Assembly (NCBI GenBank): GCA_002068775.1 | Contig: MWAX01000161.1 | Location: 1-39,901, forward strand | Length of the DNA: 39,901 nt | Reading direction: 5' to 3' | From: Actinobacteria bacterium ADurb.Bin346 | GTDB lineage: Bacteria > Actinomycetota > Humimicrobiia > Humimicrobiales > Humimicrobiaceae | Shown here: positions 3,062-32,706 of the stretch, piece by piece | Numbering within the stretch: the stretch's first letter is position 1 | Layout of the letters: the number at the start of each line of letters is the position of its first letter | Program-made: the position numbers and the translations under genes | The notes under the pieces: model-generated | Databases searched by the model: none | What the model was told of the DNA's origin: nothing | Seen by the model: the letters and a program-made list of their open reading frames with translations, nothing else

Positions 3062-4378
3062 ATGGATAAAATATTATATATAGACTGCTTTTCAGGCATT
3101 AGCGGCGATATGATGGTCGGGGCATTTCTTGACATGCAATATAAAGGAATAGACCTTGAATTCTTTCAAAATGCACTCTACGGATTGGAAGTAAAAGGTT
3201 ATTCAATAAACGCATGCAAAAAAATGCGGGGGTCCATCATGGCTACTAAATTTAATGTCATTGTTGAAGAGCAGCAGCCACCCAGAAATTTTGAAGCAAT
3301 TAAGTGCCTGGTTTCAGGTGCCAGGCTGGAGGATGAAGTTAAAAAAACAGTAATTAAAATGTTTTCCATAATTGCAGAAGCTGAAGCAAAAATTCATGGC
3401 ACGAAACTTCAAAAAGTGCATTTCCATGAAGTTGGCGCTGTCGATTCAATTGTGGATATTGTTTGTGTTGCGCTGGCAATCAATAAACTGTCTCCCCGCG
3501 CAATCTACAGCAGAAGCATCCCTCTTGGAAGTGGAAAGGTAAACACAATGCACGGTGTGATTCCCGTACCGGCTCCTGCAACTGTTGAGATATTGACGGG
3601 GTTGCCTGTTTATGGCGGAGGATTTGATTATGAAGTCACGACTCCAACCGGAGCAGCTATTATTAAAACACTTGCAGATTATTTTGAAGACATACCTGAA
3701 ATGACAATAGAGTCAGTAGGAAATGGTGCGGGAGCGGCTATGAATACAAATCACCTGGAGCACCGGGAGCAGCATGAGCAGCAGGGACACCGGGGGCAAC
3801 AAGGGCAAAATAAGCATCAAAATCACCTGGAGCACCGGGAAAATTTAAAACATCCTGCAAATAGCGGTAAAAAAGAAGAACAGACCCTGCCTCCTGACAT
3901 ACTGAGGCTTATTGTTGGTACGACAACTGCTAAAAAATCTGAAGATAAGGTTTTACTTATTTCAACAAACATAGATGATGCAGCACCAGAAATAATAGGA
4001 CATGTGCAGGAAATGCTTTTATCTTATGGAGCTCTGGACTGCTGGACAGAGCCTGTATTCATGAAAAAAAACAGATTAGCATCCAAATTATGTGTCCTTT
4101 GTAAAAATGAAAATATCGACGATGTCATGAAGCTGATATTTACAGGCACATCTTCATTGGGCGTAAGAGTACAGGAAATATCAAGGTATTGTCTTGACAG
4201 GGCTATAAAGAAAGTGAAACTGCCTTATGGTGAAGCCGATGTTAAAATCGGATACTTCAGGGGAAAACAGGTCACTGTTTCACCGGAGTACGAATCATGC
4301 AGGATTCTTGCTGAGTGTACCGGCAAGCCCCTGAAGGAGGTTTACCGTGATCTTATCCTCTTTTTTTCGAGTAAATAA
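3062..4378 (+). CDS. larC: Nickel-pincer cofactor biosynthesis protein LarC (DUF111, nickel insertion)
   Basis: The N-terminus MDKILYIDCFSGISGDMMVGAFLD is the LarC/DUF111 signature, and HFHEVGAVDSIVDIV is also present. A His/Gln-rich internal linker lies between the N- and C-terminal domains. Confidence 0.88.
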   Translation: MDKILYIDCFSGISGDMMVGAFLDMQYKGIDLEFFQNALYGLEVKGYSINACKKMRGSIMATKFNVIVEEQQPPRNFEAIKCLVSGARLEDEVKKTVIKMFSIIAEAEAKIHGTKLQKVHFHEVGAVDSIVDIVCVALAINKLSPRAIYSRSIPLGSGKVNTMHGVIPVPAPATVEILTGLPVYGGGFDYEVTTPTGAAIIKTLADYFEDIPEMTIESVGNGAGAAMNTNHLEHREQHEQQGHRGQQGQNKHQNHLEHRENLKHPANSGKKEEQTLPPDILRLIVGTTTAKKSEDKVLLISTNIDDAAPEIIGHVQEMLLSYGALDCWTEPVFMKKNRLASKLCVLCKNENIDDVMKLIFTGTSSLGVRVQEISRYCLDRAIKKVKLPYGEADVKIGYFRGKQVTVSPEYESCRILAECTGKPLKEVYRDLILFFSSK

Positions 4379-5448
4379 TATTTGAGTATGGATTGTAAAA
4401 TAGCTGTTGTCGGCACTGCAAGAAGCAAACCAATCGGCCCAAGGAATGCACCGCTTGCAATAAGGACAAGAATCACAATAGCAGGATGTACTCCTACCTG
4501 AAACTTCATCACGTTCGGGCTGATGATATAATTATCCAGCTGCTGAACAGCCACAAAAAGCAGCACCACAAGCAGAGCTTTTAAGGGTGAAATAAAAAAA
4601 GCAGCGAGAGCTGCAGGCACTGCCCCCAGGATTGGCCCAAGAAATGGAATAAGGTTCAAAGCTCCGGCAATAAAACCGAGAAGTACAGCAAAATCCACTT
4701 TTAAAAGGAATAATATAAGAGTGCATAGAAACCCCACTATTATTGAGATGAGTATCTGTCCCCTTATATAACGGCCGCTGACAATATTTATTCTGTCTAT
4801 TATCACATTTGCCGTATTTTTATATTTTTGAGGAAGTGCTTTTATAAAAAGCTCGCGCATTTTCCATGAGTCTTTAAGAATATAAATGCCAAGAAGGGGC
4901 CCTATTATGAAAGTTATAATTATATTGATAATAGACCTTGTAAATGCTGTCACGCTCTGTAAAAATGAAGAGCCTCCTCTGCCAATAGCATCAGCAATAT
5001 ACTGGTATACAAGAGTTGCATCAAACGGAAGGAACTCTTTTCCAAGCATATTTTCAATATTGTTAACTATGATACTTTTATTCATATACTGGTTTAGATT
5101 GTCTGTGAGGTTTGTGATGTAATCAGGAAGCTTTGAAATGAAAACAGTAAACTGATTAGCAACCATCGGTATTGTAAAAAAGAAAAAAGTGAAGAAAAAC
5201 CCCGTAAATATAATATATGCAATAAATATCGCTAAGCCCCTTTTCATTTTCCGGGAAAGCCAGCTTACAAGAGGCGTGAGCAGGTAAGCGATACCTGTAG
5301 CCACAATCAATGGAAAAATTGCTATTCTTATCCTGTATAAGAGATAGAAGCCCAGAGAGACCAGCACAAGAAGACCAATTATTGACCAGCAATATATACC
5401 AACTTTTTTTATTCCCTCTGTATTTTTTAAGGGTTTTTTTATTCTCAT
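4342..5448 (-). CDS. AI-2E family transporter (PerM/YdiK-like permease)
   Basis: This is a 368-aa polytopic membrane protein with the C-terminal pattern GALNLIPFLGPILGAVPAALAAF...QQLDNYIISPNVM typical of the AI-2E/UPF0118 family. Confidence 0.85.
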   Translation of the reverse strand: MRIKKPLKNTEGIKKVGIYCWSIIGLLVLVSLGFYLLYRIRIAIFPLIVATGIAYLLTPLVSWLSRKMKRGLAIFIAYIIFTGFFFTFFFFTIPMVANQFTVFISKLPDYITNLTDNLNQYMNKSIIVNNIENMLGKEFLPFDATLVYQYIADAIGRGGSSFLQSVTAFTRSIINIIITFIIGPLLGIYILKDSWKMRELFIKALPQKYKNTANVIIDRINIVSGRYIRGQILISIIVGFLCTLILFLLKVDFAVLLGFIAGALNLIPFLGPILGAVPAALAAFFISPLKALLVVLLFVAVQQLDNYIISPNVMKFQVGVHPAIVILVLIASGAFLGPIGLLLAVPTTAILQSILKYYLLEKKRIRSR

Positions 5449-5640: not shown

Positions 5641-6054
5641 ATGCCCGAGGAATCAATAAATATTTTTATCAGTAATATTTATGCAATAGCAATCTTTACC
5701 GGATTATTTGCAGCAATATTTCTTTGCCTGTTTTTTATTTCAAGAGTTCTAATTTTCAGGACCAGGAGATCAGCGCAGAGCCGCAGAGAAGAGAAAACAG
5801 CTCTCGATGCCGGAGACCAAAAACATGCCGGGACAATGTTAATTATAAGGAAAGACATTTACTTTAAAAAGAATCTGCTTGTTGCCGGTTTATTATTTAT
5901 ATTTACAGCATTGTTTATTATCCTTATTTTGCTCTCATTTCTATTTGCCACACAATTTCGTATGGACGGCAGTTTTTATATGATTTTTGCAATAATATTT
6001 ATAATCCTTGTAATGACTGTTTATATAGTCAGGTCAAAATTACTTGAAAGATAA
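5641..6054 (+). CDS. Three-TM membrane protein, putative NuoA-like subunit of the complex-I-like cluster
   Basis: It is the first gene of the cluster and lies 14 nt upstream of the NuoB-like gene. It is 137 aa, with TM1, a charged loop, then TM2 and TM3, which is NuoA-like topology. The canonical YECG and FD.E motifs are not recognisable. AAAGGA RBS. Confidence 0.45.
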   Translation: MPEESINIFISNIYAIAIFTGLFAAIFLCLFFISRVLIFRTRRSAQSRREEKTALDAGDQKHAGTMLIIRKDIYFKKNLLVAGLLFIFTALFIILILLSFLFATQFRMDGSFYMIFAIIFIILVMTVYIVRSKLLER

Positions 6055-6068
6055 TATTTTCTAAATCT

Positions 6069-6467
6069 ATGAGGTCACTTGTAAAAAATAATCTTAATAT
6101 TATTGTTGCGGGCTTTGGTTGCTGTAAGCAGGAAATACTGGCAACAACCGGCCCAACTTATGATATATCAAGATTTGGAGTTAATTTTGTCAGTGTCCCG
6201 GAAGAAGCAGATGTTCTTGTCATACAGGGATTCTACAATGAAATCGGGGAAGAAAGACTGCTTGAGATTTACAGCAGGATGAAAAAACCCAAATGGGTGA
6301 TAGCAACCGGCAAGTGCATAGTGGACAGATGTCTTCTTAATGAAGACTATAATTTTACTGAAAGGCTTGGGAAAATAATTAATGTTGATTTTTATGTACC
6401 CGGCTGCCCTCCCAGGCCAGAGGCTTTTATTTATGCAGTTCTGAGACTGCTTGAGGCAGGACAGTAA
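6069..6467 (+). CDS. nuoB: NuoB / hydrogenase small-subunit-like [4Fe-4S] protein
   Basis: The motifs GFGCCKQE...YDISRFGV...EADVLVIQG...KPKWVIATGKC...VDFYVPGCPPRPEAFIYAV parallel the NuoB/EchC/MbhJ pattern (GxxCC, YDxxRFG, PKWVIxxGxC, PGCPPRPEA). All four cluster-N2-type Cys are present. Confidence 0.85.
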   Translation: MRSLVKNNLNIIVAGFGCCKQEILATTGPTYDISRFGVNFVSVPEEADVLVIQGFYNEIGEERLLEIYSRMKKPKWVIATGKCIVDRCLLNEDYNFTERLGKIINVDFYVPGCPPRPEAFIYAVLRLLEAGQ

Positions 6468-6556
6468 TACATGCATAAACTGACAGAAAAAGATGTTATT
6501 TTTAAGATATCATTTTTAATTTTCTGCTTAAAAAATTGAGAACGGATAAATAAAAA

Positions 6557-8071
6557 TTGGCTAAAGAATTATATGACGGGATATATTCTTCTCATAAGAC
6601 AGTATTTATTGAAAAGATTGAAAAGAACCTGGGCTTTTATCTAAAAGACCATATCCTTGAGATAAAAAAACTTGGACAGGAATTACTTTGCGCTATCAGG
6701 CTTTCGGATCTGGACGATGTTTGCCAGGAACTTAATAAAAATCCGGAATTTGATATTAATATCTTAAACTCCGTAAGCCATTATAAAAGCAGAAATAAGC
6801 ATTGTCTTTTAATAGATCTTTCATCTGTCAGCAATAATTTCTCTATGCTGCTCAAAGTGGTTATGCCGCTGCCGGGAGATGCAGAAACCAGTCAGATTAT
6901 GCAGTTATTTGAATCCTCAATATCAGTATTAAAAAAGACATTTGAGGCTGCAGAGTTTTTCTCTGAGAGGAAAAACCTGCAGGAAGACAGCAGCGATATT
7001 ATAATTCAGGCACAGCAAATAGACGGACTGGACTGTTTTGATTTATATCTCTCGACAGAAGAGGACATGATAAAAAAAGCGTTTATAGATACAGGCATTG
7101 CAAGAGTTTCATCAAAAGAACTCCACAAAAACACTGTTTTACCTGATGTTCTTTCATGCATAAGCCGCTATGACCATTCTGCCGGTCTTTTTCCGGAACT
7201 GTGCATATGCCTTTCTTTTGAAGAATTGATGCAGCTGAAAGTGCCCAGGAGGGTGCAATATATAAGAATGCTTTTAAGTGAGCTTTACAGAGTTTCCAGC
7301 CATCTATACTTTGTATCACGAATTGCAAAAATCATTGGAGCAGAACTTGTATATAATCTTGTATTGCTTGAAAGAGAAAGAGCCTTAAGGCTGATAGAGC
7401 TTATTACCGGCTCGCGAATAAGCCCTAACTTCATAAGGATCGGCGGAGTAAAAAATGACCTTAATGCAGATAAGATAAAAGCAGCCAGAGAAACAATTGA
7501 AATACTTTACAGAAAGGTACGCAATATAGAAGCGCTTCTTCTTGATAACTCAGTAATATCCGCAAAGTTAAAAAACAGAGGTTCAGTCGATAGAGAAACT
7601 GCATTACTTTGCGGTGTCACAGGACCGAACCTCAGGGCCTGTGGCGCAAGATATGATATAAGAAAAAACCGGAACCTGCTTTTATATAAGGACATGTCTT
7701 TTATAATTGCTCTGGGAAAATACGGCGACTGTCTGGATAGAGTTCTGGTAAGGTTCAGGGAGATATACCAGTCAATAAAAATCATAGACCAGGCAGTTAA
7801 TGACCTGCCCGAGGAGCACATAAAAAAACTTATAAATCTTTCAGACCTGGCAATTCCTTTTACTGAAATGATATCCAGTGTTGAATGTCCGCACGGCGTA
7901 TTTAAAATATTTATGGAAATACAAGATGAATTAATACAGAATATTATTGTGCTCAGCCCCTCAAAAAACAGCGTCTATCTTGCAGAAAGAATACTGCCGG
8001 ACTCAAGATTTGAGGATGTCGAGCTTATTCTAGCAAGTCTTGATATAAACAGCGGTGAGCTAATATCCTGA
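6557..8071 (+). CDS. nuoCD: Fused NuoC-NuoD-like subunit (30-kDa plus 49-kDa / hydrogenase large-subunit fold), without NiFe cysteines
   Basis: The C-terminal ~330 aa carry NuoD-like blocks: RRVQYIRMLLSELYRVSSHL, RERALRLIELITGSRISPNFIRIGGVKNDL, GPNLRACGARYDIRKN...GKYGDCLDRVLVRFREIYQSIKII, ECPHGVF and the terminal ASLDINSGELIS. The N-terminal ~165 aa look NuoC-like (..FEAAEFFSERKNL). TTG start. Confidence 0.8.
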   Translation: MAKELYDGIYSSHKTVFIEKIEKNLGFYLKDHILEIKKLGQELLCAIRLSDLDDVCQELNKNPEFDINILNSVSHYKSRNKHCLLIDLSSVSNNFSMLLKVVMPLPGDAETSQIMQLFESSISVLKKTFEAAEFFSERKNLQEDSSDIIIQAQQIDGLDCFDLYLSTEEDMIKKAFIDTGIARVSSKELHKNTVLPDVLSCISRYDHSAGLFPELCICLSFEELMQLKVPRRVQYIRMLLSELYRVSSHLYFVSRIAKIIGAELVYNLVLLERERALRLIELITGSRISPNFIRIGGVKNDLNADKIKAARETIEILYRKVRNIEALLLDNSVISAKLKNRGSVDRETALLCGVTGPNLRACGARYDIRKNRNLLLYKDMSFIIALGKYGDCLDRVLVRFREIYQSIKIIDQAVNDLPEEHIKKLINLSDLAIPFTEMISSVECPHGVFKIFMEIQDELIQNIIVLSPSKNSVYLAERILPDSRFEDVELILASLDINSGELIS

Positions 8072-8151
8072 AAAGTGCTTAAAAATATTAAAAATATAAA
8101 ATCGTGACATTGGTCACCAGGTTGTAAAAAAATTATTAAATATGTGTAATT

Positions 8152-9087
8152 ATGCTTATTATATTTAAAAAAGTCATATACATATACCTGATACTTGGGC
8201 TGAATATTTATTTCTGTTCCTATTTTTTAAGCAAAATCTCTGCAAGGACTGAGCTGCGCAGAGGATATGTGGCTGCCAGGGCAGGCGGTTTTGGACGTCC
8301 CTTTGCCAGCATATTCAAGTATATGTCCAAGGAGCACAGATTAAGCGTCTGGGAAATGCTGCTGTTCTTTTTTTCATTCTTTATATGGACTGTAATACCA
8401 TTTTCGCAATCATTGATAATTATCAAATTTGATTTTGATATCATAGCTGTCATATTATTTTACCTTGTGCTTGTTTTTCTAATAATAATAAATGCCTGCA
8501 GCAGCTCATACGGCTTCATATATAATAATTTTTCCAGAAAAATCCTGATGATGTTCACATTCTTTATACCGCTGTTGTTCTGTATTGCAAGCATTGTACT
8601 TATCAGCAGGACTCTAAACCTAAAAGAGATCGTGGGCTCGCAATATCAGTACTGGAACATAATATTCCAGCCGCTCGGTTTTATAGCAGCAGTAACATCA
8701 GTTGTTATGCAGCTTAAGATGCTTGGCCTTACAGGAAAAAACCCTATTCTTTACTCTGAAACAGCAGAAAAAGAAGGGGCAGGTTTTGGCAGGCTTGTTA
8801 ACAGGACAGCAGAATATTCAATAATGTTTTTTCTGATCGTGATTATTGTACTGCTCTATCTTGCCGGCTGGGAAAGATTTTTCCTTATTAATGGAAATGT
8901 GATGTTTGGAATTAAATTCTATGTAGTTTTCTTCTTATTATTGTTTATTGATAAGGCAACGCCGAAGCTTAACGATTTTTATTATCTGAAAAGCGTAAAC
9001 TTCAAGTTTGTGATACCCATCTCAGTTATCAATTTTTTGCTGACTATGGTATTTTTTATTCTGAGAAATATATATAATCTGATTTGA
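8152..9087 (+). CDS. nuoH: NuoH-like polytopic membrane subunit (very divergent)
   Basis: It is 311 aa with about 8 TM segments, placed between the NuoD-like and NuoI-like genes as in nuo operons. The N-terminal loop SARTELRRGYVAARAGGFGRPFASIFKYMSKE echoes the NuoH ERK..A..Q.R.GP...G..Q..AD..K...KE region. Confidence 0.55.
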   Translation: MLIIFKKVIYIYLILGLNIYFCSYFLSKISARTELRRGYVAARAGGFGRPFASIFKYMSKEHRLSVWEMLLFFFSFFIWTVIPFSQSLIIIKFDFDIIAVILFYLVLVFLIIINACSSSYGFIYNNFSRKILMMFTFFIPLLFCIASIVLISRTLNLKEIVGSQYQYWNIIFQPLGFIAAVTSVVMQLKMLGLTGKNPILYSETAEKEGAGFGRLVNRTAEYSIMFFLIVIIVLLYLAGWERFFLINGNVMFGIKFYVVFFLLLFIDKATPKLNDFYYLKSVNFKFVIPISVINFLLTMVFFILRNIYNLI

Positions 9088-9116
9088 TTTTTTAATTGAC
9101 AGGTGGTTTTAGCTAT

Positions 9117-9548
9117 ATGAGACCGGTAATAAGAGATTTTTTTATAGAGTTTGGCAATATGTTCCGTAAGCCCAGGACTGTTGTATATCCAAAAGAAAAA
9201 ATAATAATCCCGGATGGAAGCAGGGGCATACCAAGGCTCAAGCTTGACCTGGATTCTCTGGAAGTGCTCTGCAATGGTTGTGGAGACTGTGCAAAAGCCT
9301 GTTCCGCCAGATGCATTAAAATAAAAAGAGGCATAGATGAAAACGGCAGGGAATTTTTAGAAGAGTTTAACATAGATCTTAACAGTTGTATTTTTTGCGG
9401 CAATTGTGTTGAGGTTTGTGAAAGGAAAGCAATTGAAATGACATACAGGCACCAGCTTGCCGATCAGGACAGAAACTCCTTCAAAATGGAAAAACAGGAT
9501 TTAATAAAACAGGCGGATTATTCAATAAGGGATTTTTGGACAAAATAA
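9117..9548 (+). CDS. nuoI: NuoI-like 2x[4Fe-4S] ferredoxin subunit
   Basis: There are two CxxCxxCxxxC motifs (CNGCGDCAKAC and CIFCGNCVEVC) and an N-terminal ..FRKPRTVVYPKEK.. resembling NuoI (T..YPEE). I prefer the ATG at 9117 (AGGTGG 10 nt upstream) over the track's TTG at 9096. Confidence 0.8.
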   Translation: MRPVIRDFFIEFGNMFRKPRTVVYPKEKIIIPDGSRGIPRLKLDLDSLEVLCNGCGDCAKACSARCIKIKRGIDENGREFLEEFNIDLNSCIFCGNCVEVCERKAIEMTYRHQLADQDRNSFKMEKQDLIKQADYSIRDFWTK

Positions 9549-10117
9549 TGGATGGCAAATTAATTTTAGGATTCCTGAATTACTTAATGCTCAGTCTCAT
9601 TTTTATTTTTGGACTGATTTCTCTGGCTGTAAAAGACCAGAAGAAGAAGCTCTCTTTTCTTTTCTTCATGCTTTTTTGCTCAGGTATATTGAGCTACCTT
9701 TTCTTTGCTAAAATAGCCTTTATGCTGCCTGGAATAATGCTGCTGTTTTTTTGTCTTTCAGTTTTAATTATGGTTGCCGGTCAGGAATATTTTGGTTATG
9801 GCAAACCACTGATCAAAGCCGGGAAAGAAGTTATGCCGGAAAGGCATAGCAGAGGCTGGTTTAATCCGGGAGTTATCATTAATCTTCTCTTATCTTTAAT
9901 ATTATGCATTGGTGCAGGAGTTTTATTTTATTATTTTAACAGAGATTTTTACCAGGACCTTGTACTGGTAGATACTTTTAAAGTCGCAGAAATGCAGCAG
10001 ATCGTAAATAATATAGGGTTAAATTATATGGCAGCAATCCTGATTATTTTTTGCGGGCTTGCCTCTTCATTTTTCTGGTTTTTGTGCATACTGGATAAAA
10101 AAGGTGATAAAAGTTGA
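9536..10117 (+). CDS. nuoJ: NuoJ-like membrane subunit
   Basis: It is a 193-aa protein with about 5 TM segments lying between the NuoI-like and NuoK-like genes. Its start overlaps the upstream stop (TTG at 9536, or ATG at 9548 in a TAATG overlap). The call rests on position, size and topology only. Confidence 0.5.
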   Translation: MDKIMDGKLILGFLNYLMLSLIFIFGLISLAVKDQKKKLSFLFFMLFCSGILSYLFFAKIAFMLPGIMLLFFCLSVLIMVAGQEYFGYGKPLIKAGKEVMPERHSRGWFNPGVIINLLLSLILCIGAGVLFYYFNRDFYQDLVLVDTFKVAEMQQIVNNIGLNYMAAILIIFCGLASSFFWFLCILDKKGDKS

Positions 10118-10464
10118 ACCTCCAATTCATAATACTATTCAGTTTTGCCATATTTTTACTTGGAATATTCGGGCTGACTTTTTACAGAAGCCTTTTATCT
10201 GTGCTGATCTCTTTTCAGCTTATAATTTTTTCAGCAACAATCAATTTTTTCGGGTTCTCATTATTTCTTTATAAGGCAATGACATGGGACAAGATATTTA
10301 TATTTTTTGCTTTTATCTCAATATATCTCGTGCTGTTCTCGATAGTATTTTATAATTATTCGATACAGACTGGAATCTATGAGCTTGATGTAAAAAATGA
10401 CTTCAGGTTTTTCAGATTCAGCAAGTCCGACTGGTGGGGAGAAGATAAAATTGGAGAAGATTAA
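10114..10464 (+). CDS. nuoK: NuoK-like 3-TM membrane subunit (both canonical membrane Glu apparently absent)
   Basis: MNLQFIILFSFAIFLLGIFGLTFYRSLLSVLISFQLIIFSATINFF parallels the NuoK pattern (..GL.G...RRN.L..L...E.M.NA.NL). The TTG start overlaps the NuoJ-like stop (GTTGA), with an AAGGTGA RBS. Confidence 0.6.
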   Translation: MNLQFIILFSFAIFLLGIFGLTFYRSLLSVLISFQLIIFSATINFFGFSLFLYKAMTWDKIFIFFAFISIYLVLFSIVFYNYSIQTGIYELDVKNDFRFFRFSKSDWWGEDKIGED

Positions 10465-12073
10465 AGCCCTGCTTGACAGCATATACCCGTTCTATCCTGT
10501 ATTATTTATACTGGGTTCCGGCATAATCACTGTATTTTTTGGCATGTCCGGCAGGAAACCAGTTAAGTTATTTATAATAATACTCACTGCATGCTCAATA
10601 GCTGCAGGTATTTTTATAAATATATATTCTTATAACCTGAAAGGAGAATTTTCAAATTTTCTTTTTAATTTCAGCGGCCTTCAGGTTGCACTCACATCCA
10701 TGGTTTTATTTTCTGCTTTAAACGCACTGCTGTTTTTATGCTTGTTTAATTTTAGAAAAGATAATTTGATAAAAATAATCCTTATGTTTGATTTATGTAT
10801 TTTATCCTTTATTTTTTTCATTCCATCTGTAAATTTTATAGTGATGTTTTCAAGCCTGACGTTTTTTATAACAGGTGTTTTTCAGCTTGTAACATCCTTA
10901 AACAGAGGTGTCTTTTTAAGTTCAATGCCCGAGTATACAATAAAAAACAATATTATAAGGTTTTTTCTGTTATCTGCATTATCTTTGCTATTAATGTTCC
11001 TGGGATTTTCCCTTCTTTTTGGAGCCACAGATTTAAAAACCTTCAGCCAGGTGCTCGAATCAGATTTTAAAAACACCTCTCTTATTAAAACAGGGTTTTT
11101 CATTATCCTGCTGAGCGCATTTTTATTTTCAGGGTTTGTACCGCTGCACAGTCCTTATATGAAAATGCAGAAAAGGATTGAGAAGTCCTCAACAAGCATA
11201 ATATGGCTTTTATATATTTTAGCGGGAATAATTTTGCTTTTAAAATTAAAAGATATCTTTTTCTTTTTTCTTGACAGTGATAATAAATACATAATAATTG
11301 CACTCCTTGTGGTTTCAGCAGCTTGTGTTTTTGCCGGAAATCTTGGAGCTCTTAAAACTACGAGCATAAGAAGGATCTTTTCATTTTTTGTACTTTCAAT
11401 CCTGGGAACTTCAGTCCTCGGTTTTGTGCAGTATGGGCTCGGATTGTTTGACGGGACAACTGTTTTAAAATATATAATTTCGAACTGTATACTTCTTGGT
11501 GTGACTTATATGCCGCTGATGCTGGTATTTTACTCACTTGAAACAAATGGTGACGACTCTCTTGAAAGACTAAGAGGGTTTGGCAAAAGAAATATTTATC
11601 TTTCCATTAACATGGTCATTATCATGCTTTCATTAAGCGGGCTTCCGGGTACCTATGGTTATCTTTCAAGGATGTCTTTATTATCTGTATTCCTGAGCGA
11701 TTATCGTACAATTATTGACCAGTCGGGCGGGAACTTTATCTCAGGGCTGAAAATTTCAAACATGCTGGTCGCCTTTATTTCATGGGCTTTTATTGCAGCA
11801 AACATCATAAGGCTGATCGTTGTGATTTATGGCAAAGAAATCACAAAAAAGGACATATATGCAACGGATTTACAATCCCGGGAAGTTATAGAAAACTCCG
11901 GCACTGTAAAAAGTAAAACTGTGCAGGGAAGTGCTTTTATACCTGTTTTCATTTATATTTATGTGACAATCTTCACCCTGCTGATAGTACTTACAGGAGT
12001 TGCGGGGCTACTGGAGATTCTCGGATTAAAAACATTATTTAGCGGATTCAGCATTTTAAGCCTGAATTTTTAA
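10451..12073 (+). CDS. Antiporter-like subunit (NuoL/M/N / Mrp-type, Proton_antipo_M-like), the only one in the cluster
   Basis: It is about 540 aa with about 14 TM segments. Motif remnants are FSGFVPLHSPYM (cf. FK...PFH.W.PD.Y), GALKTTSIRRIFSFFVLS (cf. A..Q...KR.LAYSSI) and SLSGLPGTYGYLSR (cf. SLAG.PP..GF.GK). The track ORF starts at 10397 inside nuoK. The TTG at 10451 (GGGGAG 8 nt upstream) is more plausible, but the start is uncertain. Confidence 0.65.
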   Translation: MEKIKALLDSIYPFYPVLFILGSGIITVFFGMSGRKPVKLFIIILTACSIAAGIFINIYSYNLKGEFSNFLFNFSGLQVALTSMVLFSALNALLFLCLFNFRKDNLIKIILMFDLCILSFIFFIPSVNFIVMFSSLTFFITGVFQLVTSLNRGVFLSSMPEYTIKNNIIRFFLLSALSLLLMFLGFSLLFGATDLKTFSQVLESDFKNTSLIKTGFFIILLSAFLFSGFVPLHSPYMKMQKRIEKSSTSIIWLLYILAGIILLLKLKDIFFFFLDSDNKYIIIALLVVSAACVFAGNLGALKTTSIRRIFSFFVLSILGTSVLGFVQYGLGLFDGTTVLKYIISNCILLGVTYMPLMLVFYSLETNGDDSLERLRGFGKRNIYLSINMVIIMLSLSGLPGTYGYLSRMSLLSVFLSDYRTIIDQSGGNFISGLKISNMLVAFISWAFIAANIIRLIVVIYGKEITKKDIYATDLQSREVIENSGTVKSKTVQGSAFIPVFIYIYVTIFTLLIVLTGVAGLLEILGLKTLFSGFSILSLNF

Positions 12074-12163: not shown

Positions 12164-12934
12164 ATGGAGACTTACAATAAAAGATTTAATTTAAAGCATC
12201 TTCTTATAATCATTTTTATACTTGTCATAGTGCTTGCAATTGTTATCAGCATCAGCCAGTTTACTTTCAGAAAAGAATACCAGCCGCCAACAGCCCTTAT
12301 CAACATGCTGCCAAGATATAGGGTCATAGACATGGATAATATCCCGATAAAAAGTGATAAAGACGGCGACGGCATCAATGATCAGAAGGATATTCTGATG
12401 GGGGCTAAAAGTCAGCTTATAGAGCCGGCAGTAAATATTTTCAGTGAGGGCTTAAATGAAACCAACTATTATAATGGGGGAGATCCGCCACCCGGACTTG
12501 CAGTTTGCACTGATATAATTGCAAGGGCTTTTAAGGCAGCAGGTTTTGATATAAGGCAGCTTGTCTACGAAGATATCAGGGATAATTTTTCAGAATATCC
12601 TTTAAGAACCCTCTGGGGACAAACCAGGCCGGACAAGGATATAGATTACAGGAGAATACAGAATCTTGAGATTTTTTTTAAAAGAAATGCCAAAGCTCTT
12701 ACCCTGACTTTCAATTACACAAGTGAGCAGGATTTAATGAAGTGGCTGCCGGGAGATATTGTTTTTTTTGACATGGACAGGGATGGATATACAGATAATG
12801 CAGGGATAATCTCAGATTTCACTACAAGAAAGGGAATACCAAAAATAATTTATAATTATATAGATCCGGGACACACCATAGAGTCAGAAATCCTGACAAC
12901 TGCAAAGATAACAGGCCACTACAGGTGGCAATGA
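12164..12934 (+). CDS. DUF1287-domain protein with N-terminal membrane anchor
   Basis: An N-terminal TM segment (LLIIIFILVIVLAIVISI) is followed by GLAVCTDIIARAFKAAGFDIRQLVYEDI...GDIVFF.., the pattern I associate with DUF1287 proteins. Confidence 0.6.
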   Translation: METYNKRFNLKHLLIIIFILVIVLAIVISISQFTFRKEYQPPTALINMLPRYRVIDMDNIPIKSDKDGDGINDQKDILMGAKSQLIEPAVNIFSEGLNETNYYNGGDPPPGLAVCTDIIARAFKAAGFDIRQLVYEDIRDNFSEYPLRTLWGQTRPDKDIDYRRIQNLEIFFKRNAKALTLTFNYTSEQDLMKWLPGDIVFFDMDRDGYTDNAGIISDFTTRKGIPKIIYNYIDPGHTIESEILTTAKITGHYRWQ

Positions 12935-14951: not shown

Positions 14952-15584
14952 ATGGCAAAATATCAGGATCTCGCAGACGCCATCATTGCAGGTGACAATG
15001 TCAAAAGCAAGGAAATAACACAGAAGCTTGTTGACAGTGGCGTCAATGCCATCGAAATACTCAACGATGGCCTGGTGCCGGGAATGGAGGTTGTTGGCGC
15101 AAAATTTAAAGCCAACGAGATGTACATTCCTGAAGTACTGATTGCGGCAAGGGCAATGCATGCAGCAATGGATATCATCAAACCAATGCTTTCAGAATCC
15201 GGAGCAGAAATGAAGGGGACAATAGTGATAGGTACAGTTCAGGGCGACCTTCATGATATTGGTAAAAATCTTGTTGGCATGATGCTCGAAGGCGGAGGCT
15301 ACACAGTTGTTGACGTCGGGGTGGATGTTCCTTCAGACAAATTTGTTGAGGAAGTAAAGAAAAGCGGAGCAAAAGTGGTTGGCCTTTCAGCATTGCTTAC
15401 CACGACAATGCCTGTAATGAAAGACGTTATCAGCGCAATAAGAGCTGATGCTGCAACAAAGAGTACAATGGTTATGGTTGGCGGCGCACCACTGACACAG
15501 GAATATGCAGATTCAATTGGCGCAAATGGTTATGCTCCTGATGCTTCAAGTGCAGTTGACCTTGCAAAGAAGCTTATGGGCTGA
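14952..15584 (+). CDS. Cobalamin-binding corrinoid protein (MtmC/MtbC/MttC-like methyltransferase partner)
   Basis: An N-terminal B12-binding-2 cap helix bundle (LADAIIAGD...EMYIPEVLIAARAM) is followed by GTVQGDLHDIGKNLV (DxHxxG), GLSALLTTT and GGAPLTQEYADSIGA. AAGGAGAAG RBS. Confidence 0.88.
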   Translation: MAKYQDLADAIIAGDNVKSKEITQKLVDSGVNAIEILNDGLVPGMEVVGAKFKANEMYIPEVLIAARAMHAAMDIIKPMLSESGAEMKGTIVIGTVQGDLHDIGKNLVGMMLEGGGYTVVDVGVDVPSDKFVEEVKKSGAKVVGLSALLTTTMPVMKDVISAIRADAATKSTMVMVGGAPLTQEYADSIGANGYAPDASSAVDLAKKLMG

Positions 15585-21346: not shown

Positions 21347-21538
21347 CTACTCAGCAATTATTGCTTCTGTTGGACAACTTTCCACCGCTTCCTGGATGCA
21401 TTCTTCGTCATATTCATCAAAATCCGTTTTTATGACAACAGCAACATCTTTATCTTCATCCATCTTGAATATATCCGGACAAGTCTCCTCACAAAGTCCA
21501 CAACCAGTGCAGAGCTCCTCGTCGATTCTTACTTCCAT
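21347..21538 (-). CDS. fdx: Small ferredoxin (single-cluster, ~63 aa)
   Basis: MEVRIDEELCTGCGLCEETCPDIF......EECIQEAVESCPTEAI has a CxxCxxC...CP pattern plus a distal C, typical of Pyrococcus/Thermotoga-type monocluster ferredoxins. Confidence 0.88.
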   Translation of the reverse strand: MEVRIDEELCTGCGLCEETCPDIFKMDEDKDVAVVIKTDFDEYDEECIQEAVESCPTEAIIAE

Positions 21539-21917: not shown

Positions 21918-23351
21918 TTGAAGCATCAATTTAGAATCACCAGGCGCGAGCTAATACTGGAAGATATTTTTTATTCACTGACAAACCTTGTCAAAGATGC
22001 AATCATTGTTGCTGATTCTTCACGGAAAATTGTCTACTGGAACAAAGCTTCAGAAAGGATATTCAGGTATCAGGCATCAGAGATCCTTGGCAAATCCCTG
22101 AGCACAGTCCTGCTGCAGGATGTTTTGTCTTTCAGCGTAAAAAGCAGCCCCAGCCCTAAAGAGAAATTTATTGAAGTGATAGGCAGAAAAAAGAATGGAC
22201 AAAAAATACCTCTTGAAATCTCAAGGACTTACTGGGAATCTGAGAAAGGGCATTTTTTTACACTGATTATCCGGGATGTGACTATAAGGAAGAATGCAGA
22301 AGAAAAGCTTAAATATATGAGTTTTCACGATAATCTCACCGGACTTTATAATCGCTCATATTTTGAAGAAGAGCTGCAGAGACTGAATACCGCAAGGCAA
22401 TTGCCGCTGAGTATAATCATTGGCGATATAGATGGCTTTAAGCTTGTGAATGATGCGTTTGGTTATAAGCAGGGGGATGAATTATTAAAAAATCTTGCAA
22501 AAGTACTGAAAGACTCCTGCAGGTCAGAAGACATGCTTGCCAGATGGGGAGGAGACGAATTTGTAATACTGCTTCCAAAAACTGATATAAAAGGAATACA
22601 GGAGATAATATCAAGGATACAGAAAAAAAGCAGGGAGGTTTCATCTGGCGGGATACCGCTGAATATTTCCCTGGGATTTGCCACAAAAGAAAAGTCCACA
22701 GACAATATAGACCGTGTCATAAAAGAAGCCGAGGACTCAATGAAGCAGAAAAAACTCATCCAGAGTAAGAAAGTCTCAAATGAGATAATAGCGTCAATTG
22801 AGAAGAAGCTAAGGGAAAGAAGCAGGGAATCAGGCGAGGCATATGAAAGGATAAAAAACCTTGCCCTCACACTCGGAAAAGCCTTAAAGCTTCAGAAGTC
22901 TGACCTTGACAATCTTGCCCTGCTTTCCGACTTTCATGACATAGGTAAGGTTACAATCAAAACCAGGATACTGACAAAAAAATCAAAGCTCGCAGAAGAA
23001 GAATGGCAGATAATGAAGATGCATCCGGAAATCGGATACCGGATTGCAAAATCGTCCGTTCAACTTGCGCAAATAGCAGATGCAATCCTTGCGCACCATG
23101 AAAACTGGGATGGCACCGGATACCCTTATAAGCTTAAAGGAAACAAGATACCAGTTATCTCAAGAATAGTCGCAATAGTTGAAGCTTATGATGTGATGGT
23201 GTGCGGACGAAACTATAAAAAAGCAGTTAGCAAAGAACAAGCCATAAAAGAGCTCAGGCTCTGTTCAAGAAAACAGTTTGACCCGCAGTTTGTAAGTAAA
23301 TTCATTGAAATAATGGAGCAAAAGGAAAAAAACCTCAGCCTTTTTCCTTAA
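21918..23351 (+). CDS. PAS sensor / GGDEF diguanylate cyclase / HD-GYP phosphodiesterase fusion protein
   Basis: The PAS domain carries ..IIVADSSRKIVYWNKASERIFRY. The GGDEF domain carries HDNLTGLYNR..F, D.D.FK..ND..G...GD and an intact RWGGDEFVILL. The HD-GYP domain carries LSDFHDIGK and HHENWDGTGYP. TTG start with a GGGAGC RBS. Confidence 0.9.
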   Translation: MKHQFRITRRELILEDIFYSLTNLVKDAIIVADSSRKIVYWNKASERIFRYQASEILGKSLSTVLLQDVLSFSVKSSPSPKEKFIEVIGRKKNGQKIPLEISRTYWESEKGHFFTLIIRDVTIRKNAEEKLKYMSFHDNLTGLYNRSYFEEELQRLNTARQLPLSIIIGDIDGFKLVNDAFGYKQGDELLKNLAKVLKDSCRSEDMLARWGGDEFVILLPKTDIKGIQEIISRIQKKSREVSSGGIPLNISLGFATKEKSTDNIDRVIKEAEDSMKQKKLIQSKKVSNEIIASIEKKLRERSRESGEAYERIKNLALTLGKALKLQKSDLDNLALLSDFHDIGKVTIKTRILTKKSKLAEEEWQIMKMHPEIGYRIAKSSVQLAQIADAILAHHENWDGTGYPYKLKGNKIPVISRIVAIVEAYDVMVCGRNYKKAVSKEQAIKELRLCSRKQFDPQFVSKFIEIMEQKEKNLSLFP

Positions 23352-32040: not shown

Positions 32041-32202
32041 ATGAAAAAGTGGGAATGCACTGTGTGCGGTTATATTTATGATCCCGCGCAGGGAGATCCT
32101 GAAAATGGTGTCAAGCCGGGAACTGCTTTTGAAGACATTCCGGCTGACTGGGTCTGCCCGGAATGCGGAGCCCCAAAAGAAGATTTTGAGCCCGTGGATT
32201 AA
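32041..32202 (+). CDS. rub: Rubredoxin (53 aa; below the ORF-track length cut-off)
   Basis: My own translation reads [53 protein letters not shown]. It has both CxxCG / CPxCG knuckles and the conserved Y.YDP..GD and F.D.P.DW.CP blocks. An AGGAGAG RBS lies 6 nt upstream. Confidence 0.93.
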
Positions 32203-32298: not shown

Positions 32299-32706
32299 TT
32301 ATATCTTAAGCTTGATTGCGTTTACAGGGCATGAGTTTGCGCAAAGTCCGCATAGAATGCATTTATTCTTATCGAACAAAAGCCTGTGCGTGACCGGATT
32401 GATTTCTAATGCCTGAGTTATGCAAAGCGAAGGGCAGACGCCGCAGCTGATGCATTTTTCCGTATCGACTATGATATCTTTTGAAGCATCCTGAATCGAT
32501 ACTCCTTCATTTTCAAGATACTTTAAGCCTTCTTCTATCTGTTTTTTTGTGCCGCTTATTTCTATAAGCATCTTTCCTTCAATATCTGCAGTTATTTCGG
32601 CTCTTAGTATATTGAACTGGAGATCAAAATCTTTTATCAGTCTGTATGTGATTGGCCTGGTAACTATTTTTTCAGGAAATGCCAGCACCAGTCTTCTTGA
32701 AATCAT
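32299..32706 (-). CDS. NIL-domain / 2x[4Fe-4S] ferredoxin fusion protein (MA1822-type)
   Basis: The N-terminal NIL-like domain (..LAFPEKIVTRPITYRLIKDFDLQFNILRAEI.....G.MLIEISG.) is followed by CISCGVCPSLC and CILCGLCANSCP. The 4-nt ATGA overlap with the upstream COG1900 gene suggests translational coupling. Confidence 0.85.
   Translation of the reverse strand: MISRRLVLAFPEKIVTRPITYRLIKDFDLQFNILRAEITADIEGKMLIEISGTKKQIEEGLKYLENEGVSIQDASKDIIVDTEKCISCGVCPSLCITQALEINPVTHRLLFDKNKCILCGLCANSCPVNAIKLKI

What the first reader, a model, noticed from the sequence alone, without database searches (positions are those of the whole stretch)
5641..12073. Minimal, highly divergent complex-I-like gene cluster (A?-B-CD-H-I-J-K plus one antiporter-like subunit) with no recognisable input module
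**What the sequence shows**
- Eight co-directional genes have short gaps or overlapping stops and starts (9546-9550, 10114-10117, 10451-10464).
- They encode a NuoB-like Fe-S subunit, a fused NuoC-NuoD-like subunit and a NuoI-like 2x[4Fe-4S] subunit.
- They also encode NuoH-, NuoJ- and NuoK-like membrane subunits, a possible NuoA analogue, and only one antiporter-like (Proton_antipo_M-type) subunit.

**What is absent**
- No NuoE/F/G (NADH dehydrogenase module) is encoded in or next to the cluster.
- No second or third antiporter-like subunit (NuoL/M) is present.
- There are no hydrogenase maturation genes, and the large subunit has no NiFe-binding cysteines.

**How it compares with known relatives**
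- Canonical Nuo has 14 subunits and 11-subunit Nuo has 11; both have three antiporter-like subunits.
- Ech has six subunits, is a NiFe enzyme, and lacks A/J/K homologues.
- Mbh/Mbx carry additional Mrp-type subunits.
- This architecture sits between those classes.
- The sequences are so diverged that several subunits are recognisable only by position, size, topology and motif remnants.

**Inference**
- This could be an undescribed subclass of the complex-I / group-4-hydrogenase superfamily. It would use an external donor, and ferredoxin (21347-21538) and rubredoxin (32041-32202) genes are present in the window.
- The acceptor is unknown.
Basis: partly seen in the sequence, partly recalled or inferred. 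Interest (0 to 1): 0.8.

Follow-up and report, generated by a model that had tools for sequence, protein, structure and literature searches.

The report
Stripped-down complex I relative in Humimicrobiia
An eight-gene operon in an uncultured anaerobic actinobacterium encodes a cut-down relative of respiratory complex I that keeps its iron-sulfur electron wire but has one pump-like subunit instead of three and has lost nearly all residues known to bind quinone and move protons, so it probably does a different job.

Summary
Window 5641-12073 holds eight co-directional, partly overlapping genes: NuoA-like, NuoB, fused NuoC-D, NuoH, NuoI, NuoJ-like, NuoK and one NuoN-type antiporter-like subunit. 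No NuoE/F/G/L/M lies in the 40 kb window or within 10 kb in about 45 related loci.

The contig is from 'Actinobacteria bacterium ADurb.Bin346'. The same operon is conserved, under purifying selection, in about 55 species of Ca. Humimicrobiia.

It is a derived offshoot of the Nuo lineage, not a hydrogenase or an intermediate form. NuoB keeps the tandem-Cys N2 site and NuoD has no NiFe cysteines. Its sister group is an undescribed second nine-gene cluster (A2-B2-C2-D2-H2-I2-J2-K2-N2) that directly follows canonical nuo in Ca. Hakubella and some metagenome contigs.

All 12 Fe-S cysteines are invariant, but the coupling machinery is dismantled:
- Antiporter-like subunit: TM5 Glu, TM7 Lys and TM8 Lys are gone.
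- NuoK: Glu36 is Gln.
- NuoH: the E-channel Glu and the TM5-6 loop acids are gone.
- NuoA: the loop and TM2 acids are gone.
- NuoD: the quinone-ligand His is Asp, and an invariant Cys-Pro-His replaces the canopy Lys/Arg.

Best reading: a ferredoxin-type-donor membrane oxidoreductase with a vestigial membrane arm and an unknown acceptor. I found no description of it in the literature searched.

The parts
5641..6054 (+). NuoA-like subunit, 137 aa, three predicted TM helices and a long variable TM1-2 loop. The canonical loop motif YECG.DP and the TM2 acids FDVE are absent.
   Evidence: Position before nuoB in all related loci. blastp against E. coli NuoA E=0.036 over 10-136. hhalign against canonical NuoA E=5e-3. 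Shared C-terminal motif and loss of D79/E81 equivalents. No Pfam, NCBIfam or PDB hit.
6069..6467 (+). NuoB-like subunit, 132 aa, carrying cluster N2. It has the tandem Cys-Cys plus two further Cys and lacks the usual N-terminal extension.
   Evidence: Pfam 5e-20; NCBIfam NF005012 118.8 bits, above the cutoff of 116. All four Cys are invariant in 44 family sequences.
6557..8071 (+). Fused NuoC-NuoD subunit, 504 aa. The C domain is about aa 12-135 and the D domain about aa 150-504. There are no NiFe cysteines. The beta1-beta2 loop GPQHPxxHG is replaced by (I)DGLDCFD. The Tyr87 equivalent is His207 here (Tyr or Trp in most relatives). An invariant VECPHG replaces the canonical E-x-x-(K/R)-G.
   Evidence: Pfam Complex1_49kDa 2e-50. 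hhalign of the N-terminal domain against NuoC E=8e-5. AlphaFold pLDDT 83.5, Foldseek E. coli NuoCD 6e-25. Motif alignment. Invariant columns.
8152..9087 (+). NuoH-like membrane subunit, 311 aa. The fold markers are kept, but the E-channel Glu (E. coli E157) and the TM5-6 loop acids (D213, E218, E220), D63, R293 and D295 are lost.
   Evidence: Pfam NADHdh 1e-25. Alignment with 23 canonical NuoH and 43 family sequences.
9096..9548 (+). NuoI-like 2x[4Fe-4S] subunit, 150 aa from the TTG at 9096. Homologues start at the Met at 9117, so about 143 aa is more likely.
   Evidence: TIGR01971 3.6e-29; Fer4_7 3e-12. The eight cluster Cys are invariant in 44 sequences.
9548..10117 (+). NuoJ-like membrane subunit, 189 aa, with a helix pattern of 3 TM, loop, TM, TM. 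It is an orphan at HMM level.
   Evidence: Always lies between nuoI and nuoK. hhalign against L060 J2 E=9e-4. Five of 36 members hit Pfam Oxidored_q3. A local NuoJ HMM hits six members at 1e-3 to 8e-3. Foldseek hits are enriched in NdhG/NuoJ/ND6, none significant. Only 49 representative clusters in 1.84 billion. It is 100% identical to BWY60_01090 'hypothetical protein'.
10114..10464 (+). NuoK-like subunit, 116 aa. The essential TM2 Glu (E. coli E36) is Gln and the TM3 Glu region is deleted. It carries a clade-specific C-terminal extension, FRFSKSDWWGED.
   Evidence: Pfam Oxidored_q2 2.8e-5. hhalign E=1.7e-7. E36 to Gln in 41 of 44 and His in 3 of 44.
10451..12073 (+). The single NuoN-type antiporter-like subunit, 540 aa from the TTG at 10451. 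TM5 Glu is Thr, TM7 Lys is Phe, and there is no TM8 Lys. TM12 Lys is Arg here and deleted in most relatives.
   Evidence: Proton_antipo_M 4e-13; NuoN best in NCBIfam. hhalign against canonical NuoN E=2.3e-13 over 38-413 with the same residue equivalences as MAFFT.
4342..5448 (-). Context only: AI-2E family transporter gene, divergently oriented. It marks the upstream end of the operon and is syntenic in nearly all related loci.
12164..12934 (+). Context only: membrane-anchored DUF1287 protein. It follows the cluster in all Humimicrobiia loci but not in the sister clusters, so it is probably a lineage synteny neighbour and not a subunit.

Best explanation
The operon encodes a membrane-bound, complex-I-derived oxidoreductase. 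It arose by reductive evolution of a second (paralogous) nuo-type cluster.

**Shown**
- The peripheral arm (NuoI with two [4Fe-4S] clusters, NuoB with N2, fused NuoCD) is intact.
- It sits on a short membrane foot made of NuoH, A, J, K and one NuoN-type subunit.
- No NADH-, F420- or H2-oxidising module is encoded with it.

**Inferred**
- Electrons enter at NuoI from a soluble low-potential carrier. Ferredoxin is the most likely, as in photosynthetic NDH-1, Fpo-like complexes, MBH and MBS.
- They pass through N6a, N6b and N2 to an acceptor bound in the pocket at the NuoD/NuoB/NuoH interface.
- That pocket is remodelled. The quinone-ligand His of the beta1-beta2 loop is an invariant Asp. An invariant Cys-Pro-His replaces the canopy Lys/Arg. 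All three coupling loops (NuoD beta1-beta2, NuoH TM5-6, NuoA TM1-2) have lost their canonical motifs.
- The acceptor or its protonation chemistry therefore differs from canonical complex I.
- The conserved Glu/Lys chain of the membrane arm is gone, so the enzyme is most likely not a canonical proton pump. The membrane subunits then act mainly as an anchor and substrate-access scaffold.

The identities of donor and acceptor are not established.
For: **Subunit identities:**

**Electron wire intact**
- Four N2 Cys and eight NuoI Cys are invariant in 44 sequences.

**No input module**
- None in the window, and none within +-10 kb in about 45 loci.

**Functional genes**
- The order and lengths of the genes are conserved in about 55 GTDB species down to 38% identity in D.
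- dN/dS is 0.09-0.56 for all eight genes in five close pairs.

**Loss of pump and coupling residues, checked by two alignment methods with well-anchored motifs**
- Antiporter-like subunit: TM5 Glu is T/S/V/A. TM7 Lys is Y/F/H. TM8 Lys is absent. TM12 Lys is Arg in 11 of 37, Gln in 1, and deleted in 25 of 37.
- NuoK: E36 is Gln in 41 of 44.
- NuoH: E157, D213, E218, E220, D63, R293 and D295 are lost.
- NuoA: the FDVE and YECG.DP motifs are lost.

**Remodelled active site**
- It is shared with the sister clade (ECPHG; His to Asp).

**Precedent**
- In MBS, absence of the H38 and Y87 equivalents goes with a non-quinone substrate (PMC7684303).

**Physiology**
- Near-complete MAGs of this class (RBG-13-55-18) were reported to have the Wood-Ljungdahl pathway, Rnf and a V-type ATPase but no NADH-quinone oxidoreductase (PMC7325909).
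- That fits a ferredoxin-centred anaerobe.
Against: - No biochemical, expression or structural data exist.
- Donor and acceptor are pure inference.
- The membrane subunits remain under purifying selection. They keep some conserved polar or charged residues: NuoH K28, R36, K56, E208, K255; antiporter-like subunit R307/R308, E364, D369, R454. A non-canonical ion path cannot be excluded.
- A heme O synthase gene in the window hints at a haem-copper oxidase and so a quinone pool. A quinone acceptor therefore remains possible.
- Most family members keep the Tyr87 equivalent.
- Residue equivalences rest on alignments at 20-30% identity, although conserved motifs anchor them.
- I could not inspect whole genomes for partner subunits.
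Confidence: 0.5

Rival explanations
1. It is a minimal but still energy-converting complex I. Ferredoxin (or another donor):quinone oxidoreduction drives ion translocation through NuoH/A/J/K and the single NuoN-type subunit, using non-canonical polar residues.
For: - The complete A-H-J-K-N foot is retained under purifying selection.
- Conserved polar residues remain in the membrane subunits.
- The sister cluster in Hakubella-like genomes still has the TM5 Glu and TM7 Lys, and in L060 the NuoK E36.
- Own knowledge: a Yarrowia complex I subcomplex lacking ND4 and ND5 still pumps at about half stoichiometry (Drose et al. 2011).
Against: - In Humimicrobiia every hallmark residue of the charged axis is replaced by an uncharged or non-titratable residue.
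- This holds across the antiporter TM5, TM7 and TM8 positions, both NuoK Glu, NuoH E157 with the TM5-6 loop acids, and the NuoA TM2 acids.
- No alternative conserved acidic/basic chain is evident.
Confidence: 0.2
2. It is an ordinary complex I whose missing subunits (NuoL, M, E, F, G) are encoded elsewhere in the genome.
For: - The window covers only 40 kb, and whole genomes could not be searched here.
- nuoEFG are often unlinked in bacteria (PMC3144371).
Against: - The same eight genes and nothing more occur in about 45 loci with 10 kb flanks.
- Two 97%-complete MAGs of the class were reported to lack NADH-quinone oxidoreductase (PMC7325909).
- The residues that a canonical enzyme needs are absent.
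- In the sister lineage a full canonical nuo operon coexists with the single-antiporter cluster. The latter is therefore a separate entity.
Confidence: 0.07
3. It belongs to the Ehr ('energy-converting hydrogenase related') or Mbx/MBS type of group-4-hydrogenase derivatives.
For: - The large subunit lacks NiFe ligands, there is no input module, and there is a single antiporter-like subunit as in Ech or Mbh.
- The best single PDB sequence hit of D is MbsL (4.8e-40), marginally ahead of NdhH and Nqo4.
- H38/Y87-type ligands are not conserved, as in MBS.
Against: - NuoB has the complex-I CC motif, not the hydrogenase CxxC or the MBS three-Cys site (PMC7684303).
- There are no Mrp-type subunits.
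- D hits only Nuo/Fpo/Ndh NCBIfam models and not PF00374.
- The NJ tree places MbsL and HycE/HyfG outside the clade of this family plus NuoD (74% and 100% bootstrap).
- A, J and K homologues are of Nuo type, and the antiporter-like subunit is NuoN-like.
Confidence: 0.06
4. It is a decaying relic with no catalytic function.
For: - There is massive loss of functional residues.
- A, J and N evolve faster than flanking genes. Identity to L001 is 26-33%, against 54-61% for the neighbours.
Against: - The ORFs are intact with conserved lengths in about 55 species.
- dN/dS is well below 1.
- All 12 Fe-S Cys and a new invariant ECPHG motif are maintained.
Confidence: 0.05

Closest known systems
Second nuo-type cluster (A2-B2-C2-D2-H2-I2-J2-K2-N2) of Ca. 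Hakubella thermalkaliphila and related metagenome contigs (L060, L061, L088, L089, L091). It is annotated simply as Nuo subunits and is not described as a separate complex in the Hakubella genome paper (PMC7325909).
   Same: - It is the best blastp hit for B, D, H, I and N.
- D is the sister clade (71% bootstrap).
- It has a single NuoN-type antiporter-like subunit and no EFG.
- It shares the ECPHG motif, the His-to-Asp change in the beta1-beta2 loop, loss of NuoH E157, loss of the NuoA acids, and the C-terminal extensions of K and I.
   Different: - C and D are separate genes.
- It sits directly downstream of a canonical nuo ...L-M-N operon.
- It still has the antiporter TM5 Glu and TM7 Lys, several NuoH acids and (in L060) NuoK E36.
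- The Tyr87 equivalent is Ala or Ser.
11-subunit complex I (NuoABCDHIJKLMN without EFG), for example in the Acidimicrobiia loci found here, Chlorobium and Bacillus cereus (PMC3144371)
   Same: - It has the same core Q-module and the same H, A, J, K subunits.
- It has no encoded NADH module, and the donor is unknown or ferredoxin-like.
- NuoB has the CC motif.
- Apart from the sister clusters, it supplies the closest named NuoD relatives, at 31-35% identity.
   Different: - It has three antiporter-like subunits with the full Glu/Lys pattern.
- It has the canonical GPQHPxxHG, RxDY and E-x-x-(K/R)-G motifs, NuoH E-channel and NuoK glutamates.
Ech, Hyc (FHL) and MBH group 4 [NiFe]-hydrogenases
   Same: - They have one antiporter-like subunit next to a NuoH homologue.
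- Ferredoxin (or formate) serves as donor without a flavoprotein module.
- HycE also has a fused C-D arrangement.
   Different: - They have a NiFe site with four Cys and CxxC in the small subunit.
- Ech and Hyc lack A, J and K homologues, and MBH adds Mrp-type subunits (PMC3144371, PMC7684303).
- Their antiporter-like subunits keep the TM5 Glu.
MBS/Mbx of Thermococcales
   Same: - There is no NiFe site.
- The H38 and Y87 equivalents are absent, and the substrate is not a quinone.
- Ferredoxin is the donor.
- Its D homologue is the best single PDB sequence hit.
   Different: - It has two antiporter-like subunits plus an Mrp module.
- Its proximal cluster has only three Cys ligands.
- It has the canonical EATKG canopy.
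- It falls outside the clade in the D tree.
Yarrowia lipolytica complex I subcomplex lacking ND4 and ND5 (nb8m deletion; own knowledge, not checked here)
   Same: The membrane arm is truncated after the NuoN/ND2 position. This is the laboratory analogue of the architecture.
   Different: - It is an engineered loss in an otherwise canonical enzyme.
- It keeps all coupling residues and still pumps.

Membership tests
Respiratory complex I / NDH-1 (Nuo) core | NuoB with four Cys for cluster N2, including the tandem Cys-Cys | tested here: met
   GCCKQE...GKC...GCPP. All four Cys are invariant in 44 sequences. NCBIfam NuoB subfamily is above its cutoff.
Respiratory complex I / NDH-1 (Nuo) core | NuoI with two CxxCxxCxxxC [4Fe-4S] motifs | tested here: met
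   Eight Cys are invariant. TIGR01971 3.6e-29, 100.8 bits, below its cutoff of 113.
Respiratory complex I / NDH-1 (Nuo) core | NuoD without NiFe cysteines but with the quinone head-group ligands (T. thermophilus Nqo4 His38 in GPQHPxxHG and Tyr87 in RxDY) | tested here: not met
   NiFe Cys are absent. His38 is replaced by an invariant Asp (GLD). The Tyr87 position is His in the window, Tyr or Trp in relatives, and Ala or Ser in the sister clade.
Respiratory complex I / NDH-1 (Nuo) core | Three antiporter-like subunits (L, M, N) carrying TM5 Glu, TM7 Lys, TM8 Lys/His and TM12 Lys/Glu | tested here: not met
   There is one NuoN-type subunit. The Glu and Lys positions are replaced by T/S/V/A and Y/F/H. 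TM12 is Arg or deleted.
Respiratory complex I / NDH-1 (Nuo) core | NuoH with the E-channel Glu and the acidic TM5-6 loop; NuoK with the TM2 and TM3 Glu; NuoA with the TM2 acids and the TM1-2 loop motif | tested here: not met
   The subunits are present as homologues, but the residues are lost.
Respiratory complex I / NDH-1 (Nuo) core | Phylogenetic placement of the D subunit inside the NuoD/NdhH radiation | tested here: inconclusive
   NJ tree on 218 columns. The family plus its sister cluster branch as sister to all sampled NuoD/NdhH, with MbsL (74%) and HycE/HyfG (100%) outside. Long-branch effects are possible and no ML tree was available.
Group 4 [NiFe]-hydrogenases (Ech, Hyc/Hyf, Mbh, Coo) | Four NiFe-ligand cysteines in the large subunit (RxCGxC and DPCxxC) | tested here: not met
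   The aligned positions are D, A/S, N and E. There is no PF00374 hit.
Group 4 [NiFe]-hydrogenases (Ech, Hyc/Hyf, Mbh, Coo) | CxxC spacing of the first two proximal-cluster ligands in the small subunit | tested here: not met
   The two Cys are adjacent (CC), as in complex I (criterion from PMC7684303).
Ehr (energy-converting hydrogenase related complexes) | Related to group 4 hydrogenases but lacking Ni and Fe ligands; Mrp antiporter-like subunits (definition as quoted in PMC6349859) | tested here: inconclusive
   The loose definition is formally met, since there are no NiFe ligands. However, the D and B features and the tree point to Nuo and not to hydrogenases.
MBS / Mbx | Mrp-type subunits (MbsA-C, E), two antiporter-like subunits, and a proximal cluster with three Cys ligands | tested here: not met
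   No such genes are present, and N2 has four Cys ligands.
Fpo / F420H2 dehydrogenase | FpoF input subunit and three antiporter-like subunits | tested here: not met
   Neither is present. The FpoD, FpoH, FpoI and FpoK models score lower than the Nuo models.

The most novel reading that the evidence does not exclude
The Humimicrobiia operon and its Hakubella-type sister cluster define a new class of complex-I-derived enzymes. In this class the Fe-S wire has been recruited for a new reaction at a rebuilt active site (invariant Asp in the beta1-beta2 loop plus Cys-Pro-His in the canopy). The acceptor is not a canonical quinone. In Humimicrobiia the enzyme has entirely given up redox-driven ion pumping, which would make it the first natural 'uncoupled' member of the complex I superfamily.
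Probability: 0.3. Interest if true: 0.8.

Novelty: new variant of a known kind. Interest (0 to 1): 0.66.

Why it matters
Complex I and its relatives are usually treated as obligate energy converters. The fixed pattern of Glu/Lys residues and the three coupling loops are central to every proposed mechanism.

This natural, class-wide variant keeps the electron wire and the NuoH-A-J-K-N foot but has replaced almost all of those residues. A sister form shows an intermediate state.

- It offers a graded natural series (canonical Nuo, then the Hakubella second cluster, then the Humimicrobiia operon). The series can be used to test which elements are needed for assembly, for substrate reduction and for pumping.
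- It points to an unrecognised membrane redox enzyme in a widespread group of uncultured acetogen-like Actinomycetota. Their energy metabolism is currently modelled with Rnf and an ATPase only.
- Automated annotation names only B, D, H and I, so pathway-completeness tools score the complex as absent.

Tried and rejected
- **PDB profile searches for A and J.** Profile HMM searches against PDB sequences gave only chance GPCR-type hits, plus one weak ND6 hit (E=0.095).
- **J against canonical NuoJ.** Profile-profile comparison of the J family with canonical NuoJ gave nothing (E=0.21).
- **AlphaFold model of J.** The accepted run was of low confidence (pLDDT 59.8), so its Foldseek hits are only suggestive.
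- **J profile against 1.84 billion representatives.** No bridge to large NuoJ families was found. The search returned only 49 lineage-restricted clusters.
- **Literature.** Jiao et al. 2021 (the Humimicrobiia description) is not held. One search was wasted on the ambiguous term 'Ehr'. Searches for single-antiporter complexes, lack of NuoL, and the class names found no description of this cluster.
- **UbiA-family gene.** I considered that the gene at 27792-28682 marks menaquinone synthesis. This was rejected: it is heme O synthase.
- **LarC.** I considered LarC (3062-4378) as a hydrogenase-type Ni maturase. This was rejected: it is the nickel-pincer cofactor enzyme, and it is adjacent only in the closest relatives.
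- **DUF1287 and the AI-2E transporter.** I considered these as subunits. They are syntenic only within Humimicrobiia, together with unrelated riboflavin, UDG and other genes, and are absent from the sister clusters.
- **Promoter and terminator scan.** It was uninformative in this AT-rich DNA.
- **First dN/dS script.** It timed out and was redone.
- **Wrong-frame reference.** The 'Aci_H' reference ORF was a wrong-frame ORF. It was replaced by tblastn-derived canonical NuoH sequences.

Full report
**1. What is in the window**

Between a divergently oriented AI-2E transporter gene (4342-5448, minus strand) and a DUF1287 gene (12164-12934) lie eight + strand ORFs.
- TAATG at 9546-9550.
- TTGA at 10114-10117.
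- A TTG start at 10451, 14 nt before the stop at 10462-10464.

Homologues suggest these starts: 9117 for the NuoI-like gene, 9548 for the J-like gene (the NCBI protein BWY60_01090 is 189 aa) and 10451 for the last gene.

**2. Subunit identities**

Five subunits are supported by Pfam and NCBIfam:
- NuoB: 5e-20, and NF005012 above its cutoff.
- NuoD domain: 2e-50.
- NuoH: 1e-25.
- NuoI: 4e-29.
- An antiporter-like subunit, closest to NuoN: Proton_antipo_M 4e-13.

NuoK is weak in Pfam (2.8e-5). It is clear in a profile-profile test against canonical NuoK collected from other loci (E=1.7e-7, probability 94%).

The N-terminal 150 residues of the 504-aa protein are a NuoC domain:
- hhalign against the Pfam-positive NuoC of locus L060 gives E=8e-5 in register.
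- An AlphaFold model (pLDDT 83.5, pTM 0.87) matches the fused NuoCD chains of E. coli and Aquifex over about 580 columns (E=6e-25, TM 0.82).

The A-like and J-like proteins have no direct HMM hit. A is supported by the following:
- Its position and three TM helices.
- A full-length weak match to E. coli NuoA (E=0.036 in a 60-sequence database).
- hhalign E=5e-3.
- A shared C-terminal motif.

J is supported by the following:
- Its position and helix pattern.
- hhalign E=9e-4 against the J2 protein of L060, which itself passes Pfam Oxidored_q3.
- Five of 36 family members hitting Oxidored_q3.
- Six family members hitting a local NuoJ HMM at 1e-3 to 8e-3.
- A Foldseek list in which at least 12 of 22 (non-significant) hits are NdhG/NuoJ/ND6.

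I regard B, CD, H, I, K and N as established, J as probable and A as likely.

**3. What is absent**

No other Proton_antipo_M, NuoE, NuoF or NuoG gene occurs among the window ORFs of at least 110 aa. None occurs within 10 kb either side in related loci. The large subunit has no NiFe cysteines.

**4. Where it occurs**

The J protein is 100% identical to a 'hypothetical protein' of 'Actinobacteria bacterium ADurb.Bin346', on a contig of 39,901 bp.
- The CD protein has more than 120 full-length relatives (39-78% identity, all about 500 aa) in uncultured Actinomycetota.
- In one-genome-per-species GTDB data, about 55 species carry it. Some are titled Ca. Humimicrobiales, Humimicrobiaceae, Hydromicrobium or Calidifonticultor.
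- Wherever the contig is long enough, the same eight genes occur in the same order with nearly constant lengths.
- In five close genome pairs, dN/dS is 0.09-0.56 for every gene, including A, J and the antiporter-like one.

So these are maintained, functional genes.

**5. Closest relatives**

Outside the class, the best matches of B, D, H, I and N are the products of a second nuo-type cluster in Ca. Hakubella thermalkaliphila (L061) and a close relative (L060). The same type occurs in L088, L089 and L091.
- There, a canonical ...H-I-J-K-L-M-N operon is followed directly by A2-B2-C2-D2-H2-I2-J2-K2-N2, again with a single NuoN-type subunit.
- An NJ tree of the central 218 columns of D (200 bootstraps) gives Humimicrobiia 100% and the second-cluster clade 96%.
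- The two together get 71%.
- That pair is sister to all sampled NuoD/NdhH.
- MbsL lies outside (74%) and HycE/HyfG serve as outgroup.

Shared derived characters back the pairing:
- ECPHG in place of the canonical E-x-x-(K/R)-G.
- Loss of both His of GPQHPxxHG, with Asp at the second.
- NuoH SYE replaced by (S/T)FF.
- Loss of the NuoA acids.
- C-terminal extensions of K (F[KR]FS..W..GE[ED]) and of I ([RP][DE]FW).

The C-D fusion is specific to Humimicrobiia.

**6. What is kept and what is lost**

Kept: all four N2 cysteines (tandem CC) and all eight NuoI cysteines, in 44 of 44 sequences.

Lost in Humimicrobiia:

(a) Antiporter-like subunit.
- TM5 Glu is T/S/V/A.
- TM7 Lys is Y/F/H.
- No TM8 Lys is present.
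- TM12 Lys is Arg in the window's subclade and lies in an 8-9 residue deletion in 25 of 37 sequences.
- The equivalences are anchored by the conserved PxH, (K/R)R and G motifs. They are the same in MAFFT and in hhalign (E=2.3e-13).

(b) NuoK.
- E36 is Gln in 41 of 44 and His in 3 of 44.
- The second Glu region is deleted.

(c) NuoH.
- E157, D63, D213, E218, E220, Y229, R293 and D295 are replaced.
- K28, R36, K56, Q164, Q173, E208, K255 and N294 persist.

(d) NuoA.
- The YECG.DP loop motif and the FDVE motif are gone.

(e) NuoD.
- His38 is an invariant Asp.
- The Tyr87 position is variable (His207 in the window).
- Cys444 and His446 are new invariants.

Thus all three loops described as linking the redox site to the membrane arm (PMC7684303) are remodelled, and the charged axis is gone. 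The Hakubella-type cluster is intermediate. It keeps the TM5 Glu and TM7 Lys, several NuoH acids and, in L060, NuoK E36.

**7. Interpretation**

The intact Fe-S chain and the lack of an input module argue for direct reduction by a soluble low-potential carrier.
- Ferredoxin is the precedent in NDH-1, MBH and MBS.
- A small ferredoxin (21347-21538, minus strand) and a rubredoxin (32041-32202) are in the window, but they are not linked to the operon.
- The rebuilt pocket suggests a changed acceptor or changed protonation chemistry. In MBS, absence of the H38 and Y87 equivalents accompanies a non-quinone substrate.
- Loss of the charged axis argues against canonical pumping.

Published genome analyses of two 97%-complete members of this class (RBG-13-55-18) report the Wood-Ljungdahl pathway, Rnf and a V-type ATPase but no NADH-quinone oxidoreductase (PMC7325909). 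This shows two things. The complex has gone unrecognised, and a canonical complex I is probably absent.

A heme O synthase gene in the window leaves open that a quinol-oxidising branch, and hence a quinone pool, exists.

**8. Comparison with the known and novelty**

The cluster works most like an 11-subunit, ferredoxin-type Nuo truncated after NuoN. It fails several defining tests of complex I: the quinone ligands, three pumps and the E-channel. It fails all tests of group 4 hydrogenases and of MBS/Mbx.

The loose Ehr label (no NiFe ligands) would formally fit. However, the sequence features and the tree point to Nuo ancestry.

Full-text searches found no description of a natural complex-I-type operon with one antiporter-like subunit plus A, J and K, nor of the ECPHG clade.

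I rate it a new variant of a known kind.

**9. Limits**

- No whole-genome search was possible.
- The tree is NJ on 218 columns with few hydrogenase, Mbx and Fpo references.
- Residue equivalences come from alignments at low identity.
- No multimer model or coordinates were available to test pocket geometry.
- Donor, acceptor and coupling are inferred, not shown.

Noticed in passing
L060 7225-13566; L061 8624-12134 (contig end); L089 8671-14782; L088 367-5284; L091: In Ca. Hakubella thermalkaliphila and related metagenome contigs, a canonical nuo operon (...H-I-J-K-L-M-N) is followed on the same strand by a second nine-gene cluster with a single NuoN-type subunit. This second cluster has the ECPHG motif in D2. 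The Hakubella genome paper treats nuo as one canonical enzyme.
   Followed up: partly
window 27792-28682 (+): The UbiA-family gene is a heme O synthase (CtaB/CyoE; TIGR01473 239.7 bits, above its cutoff of 210.3). This is unexpected in a presumed strictly anaerobic, acetogen-like lineage. It hints at a haem-copper oxidase.
   Followed up: partly
window 3062-4378 (+): LarC (nickel-pincer cofactor synthesis) carries a His/Gln-rich low-complexity insert (about aa 225-265). It lies next to the cluster only in the closest relatives (L004, L005).
   Followed up: partly
The rubredoxin (53 aa, two CxxC pairs) is on the plus strand. Neither is adjacent to the cluster.
   Followed up: yes
window 14952-15584 (+): A corrinoid protein of the methyltransferase-associated type (best NCBIfam matches MtgC/MtbC, below cutoffs). 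This suggests methylated-amine or glycine-betaine use.
   Followed up: no
window 10400-10464 and the homologous K genes; L060 11731-12105: NuoK-like proteins of this clade carry a conserved hydrophilic C-terminal tail (FRFSKSDWWGED). Canonical NuoK lacks it. NuoI-like proteins share a C-terminal (R/P)(D/E)FW. These may be new inter-subunit contacts.
   Followed up: no
window 11650-11680 (antiporter-like aa about 400-408) and the family alignment: The TM12 G..G(F/Y)..K motif is present with Arg in 11 of 37 family members, including the window, and with Gln in one. It is removed by an 8-9 residue deletion in the other 25. Degeneration therefore continued within the class.
   Followed up: yes
window 21918-23351 (+): A PAS-GGDEF-HD(-GYP-like) signalling protein. 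It is unrelated to the cluster.
   Followed up: no
window 32703-33869 (-): A homocysteine biosynthesis sulfur-incorporation enzyme (PF01837, 9e-154). It lies on the opposite strand, about 0.5 kb downstream of the rubredoxin gene.
   Followed up: no
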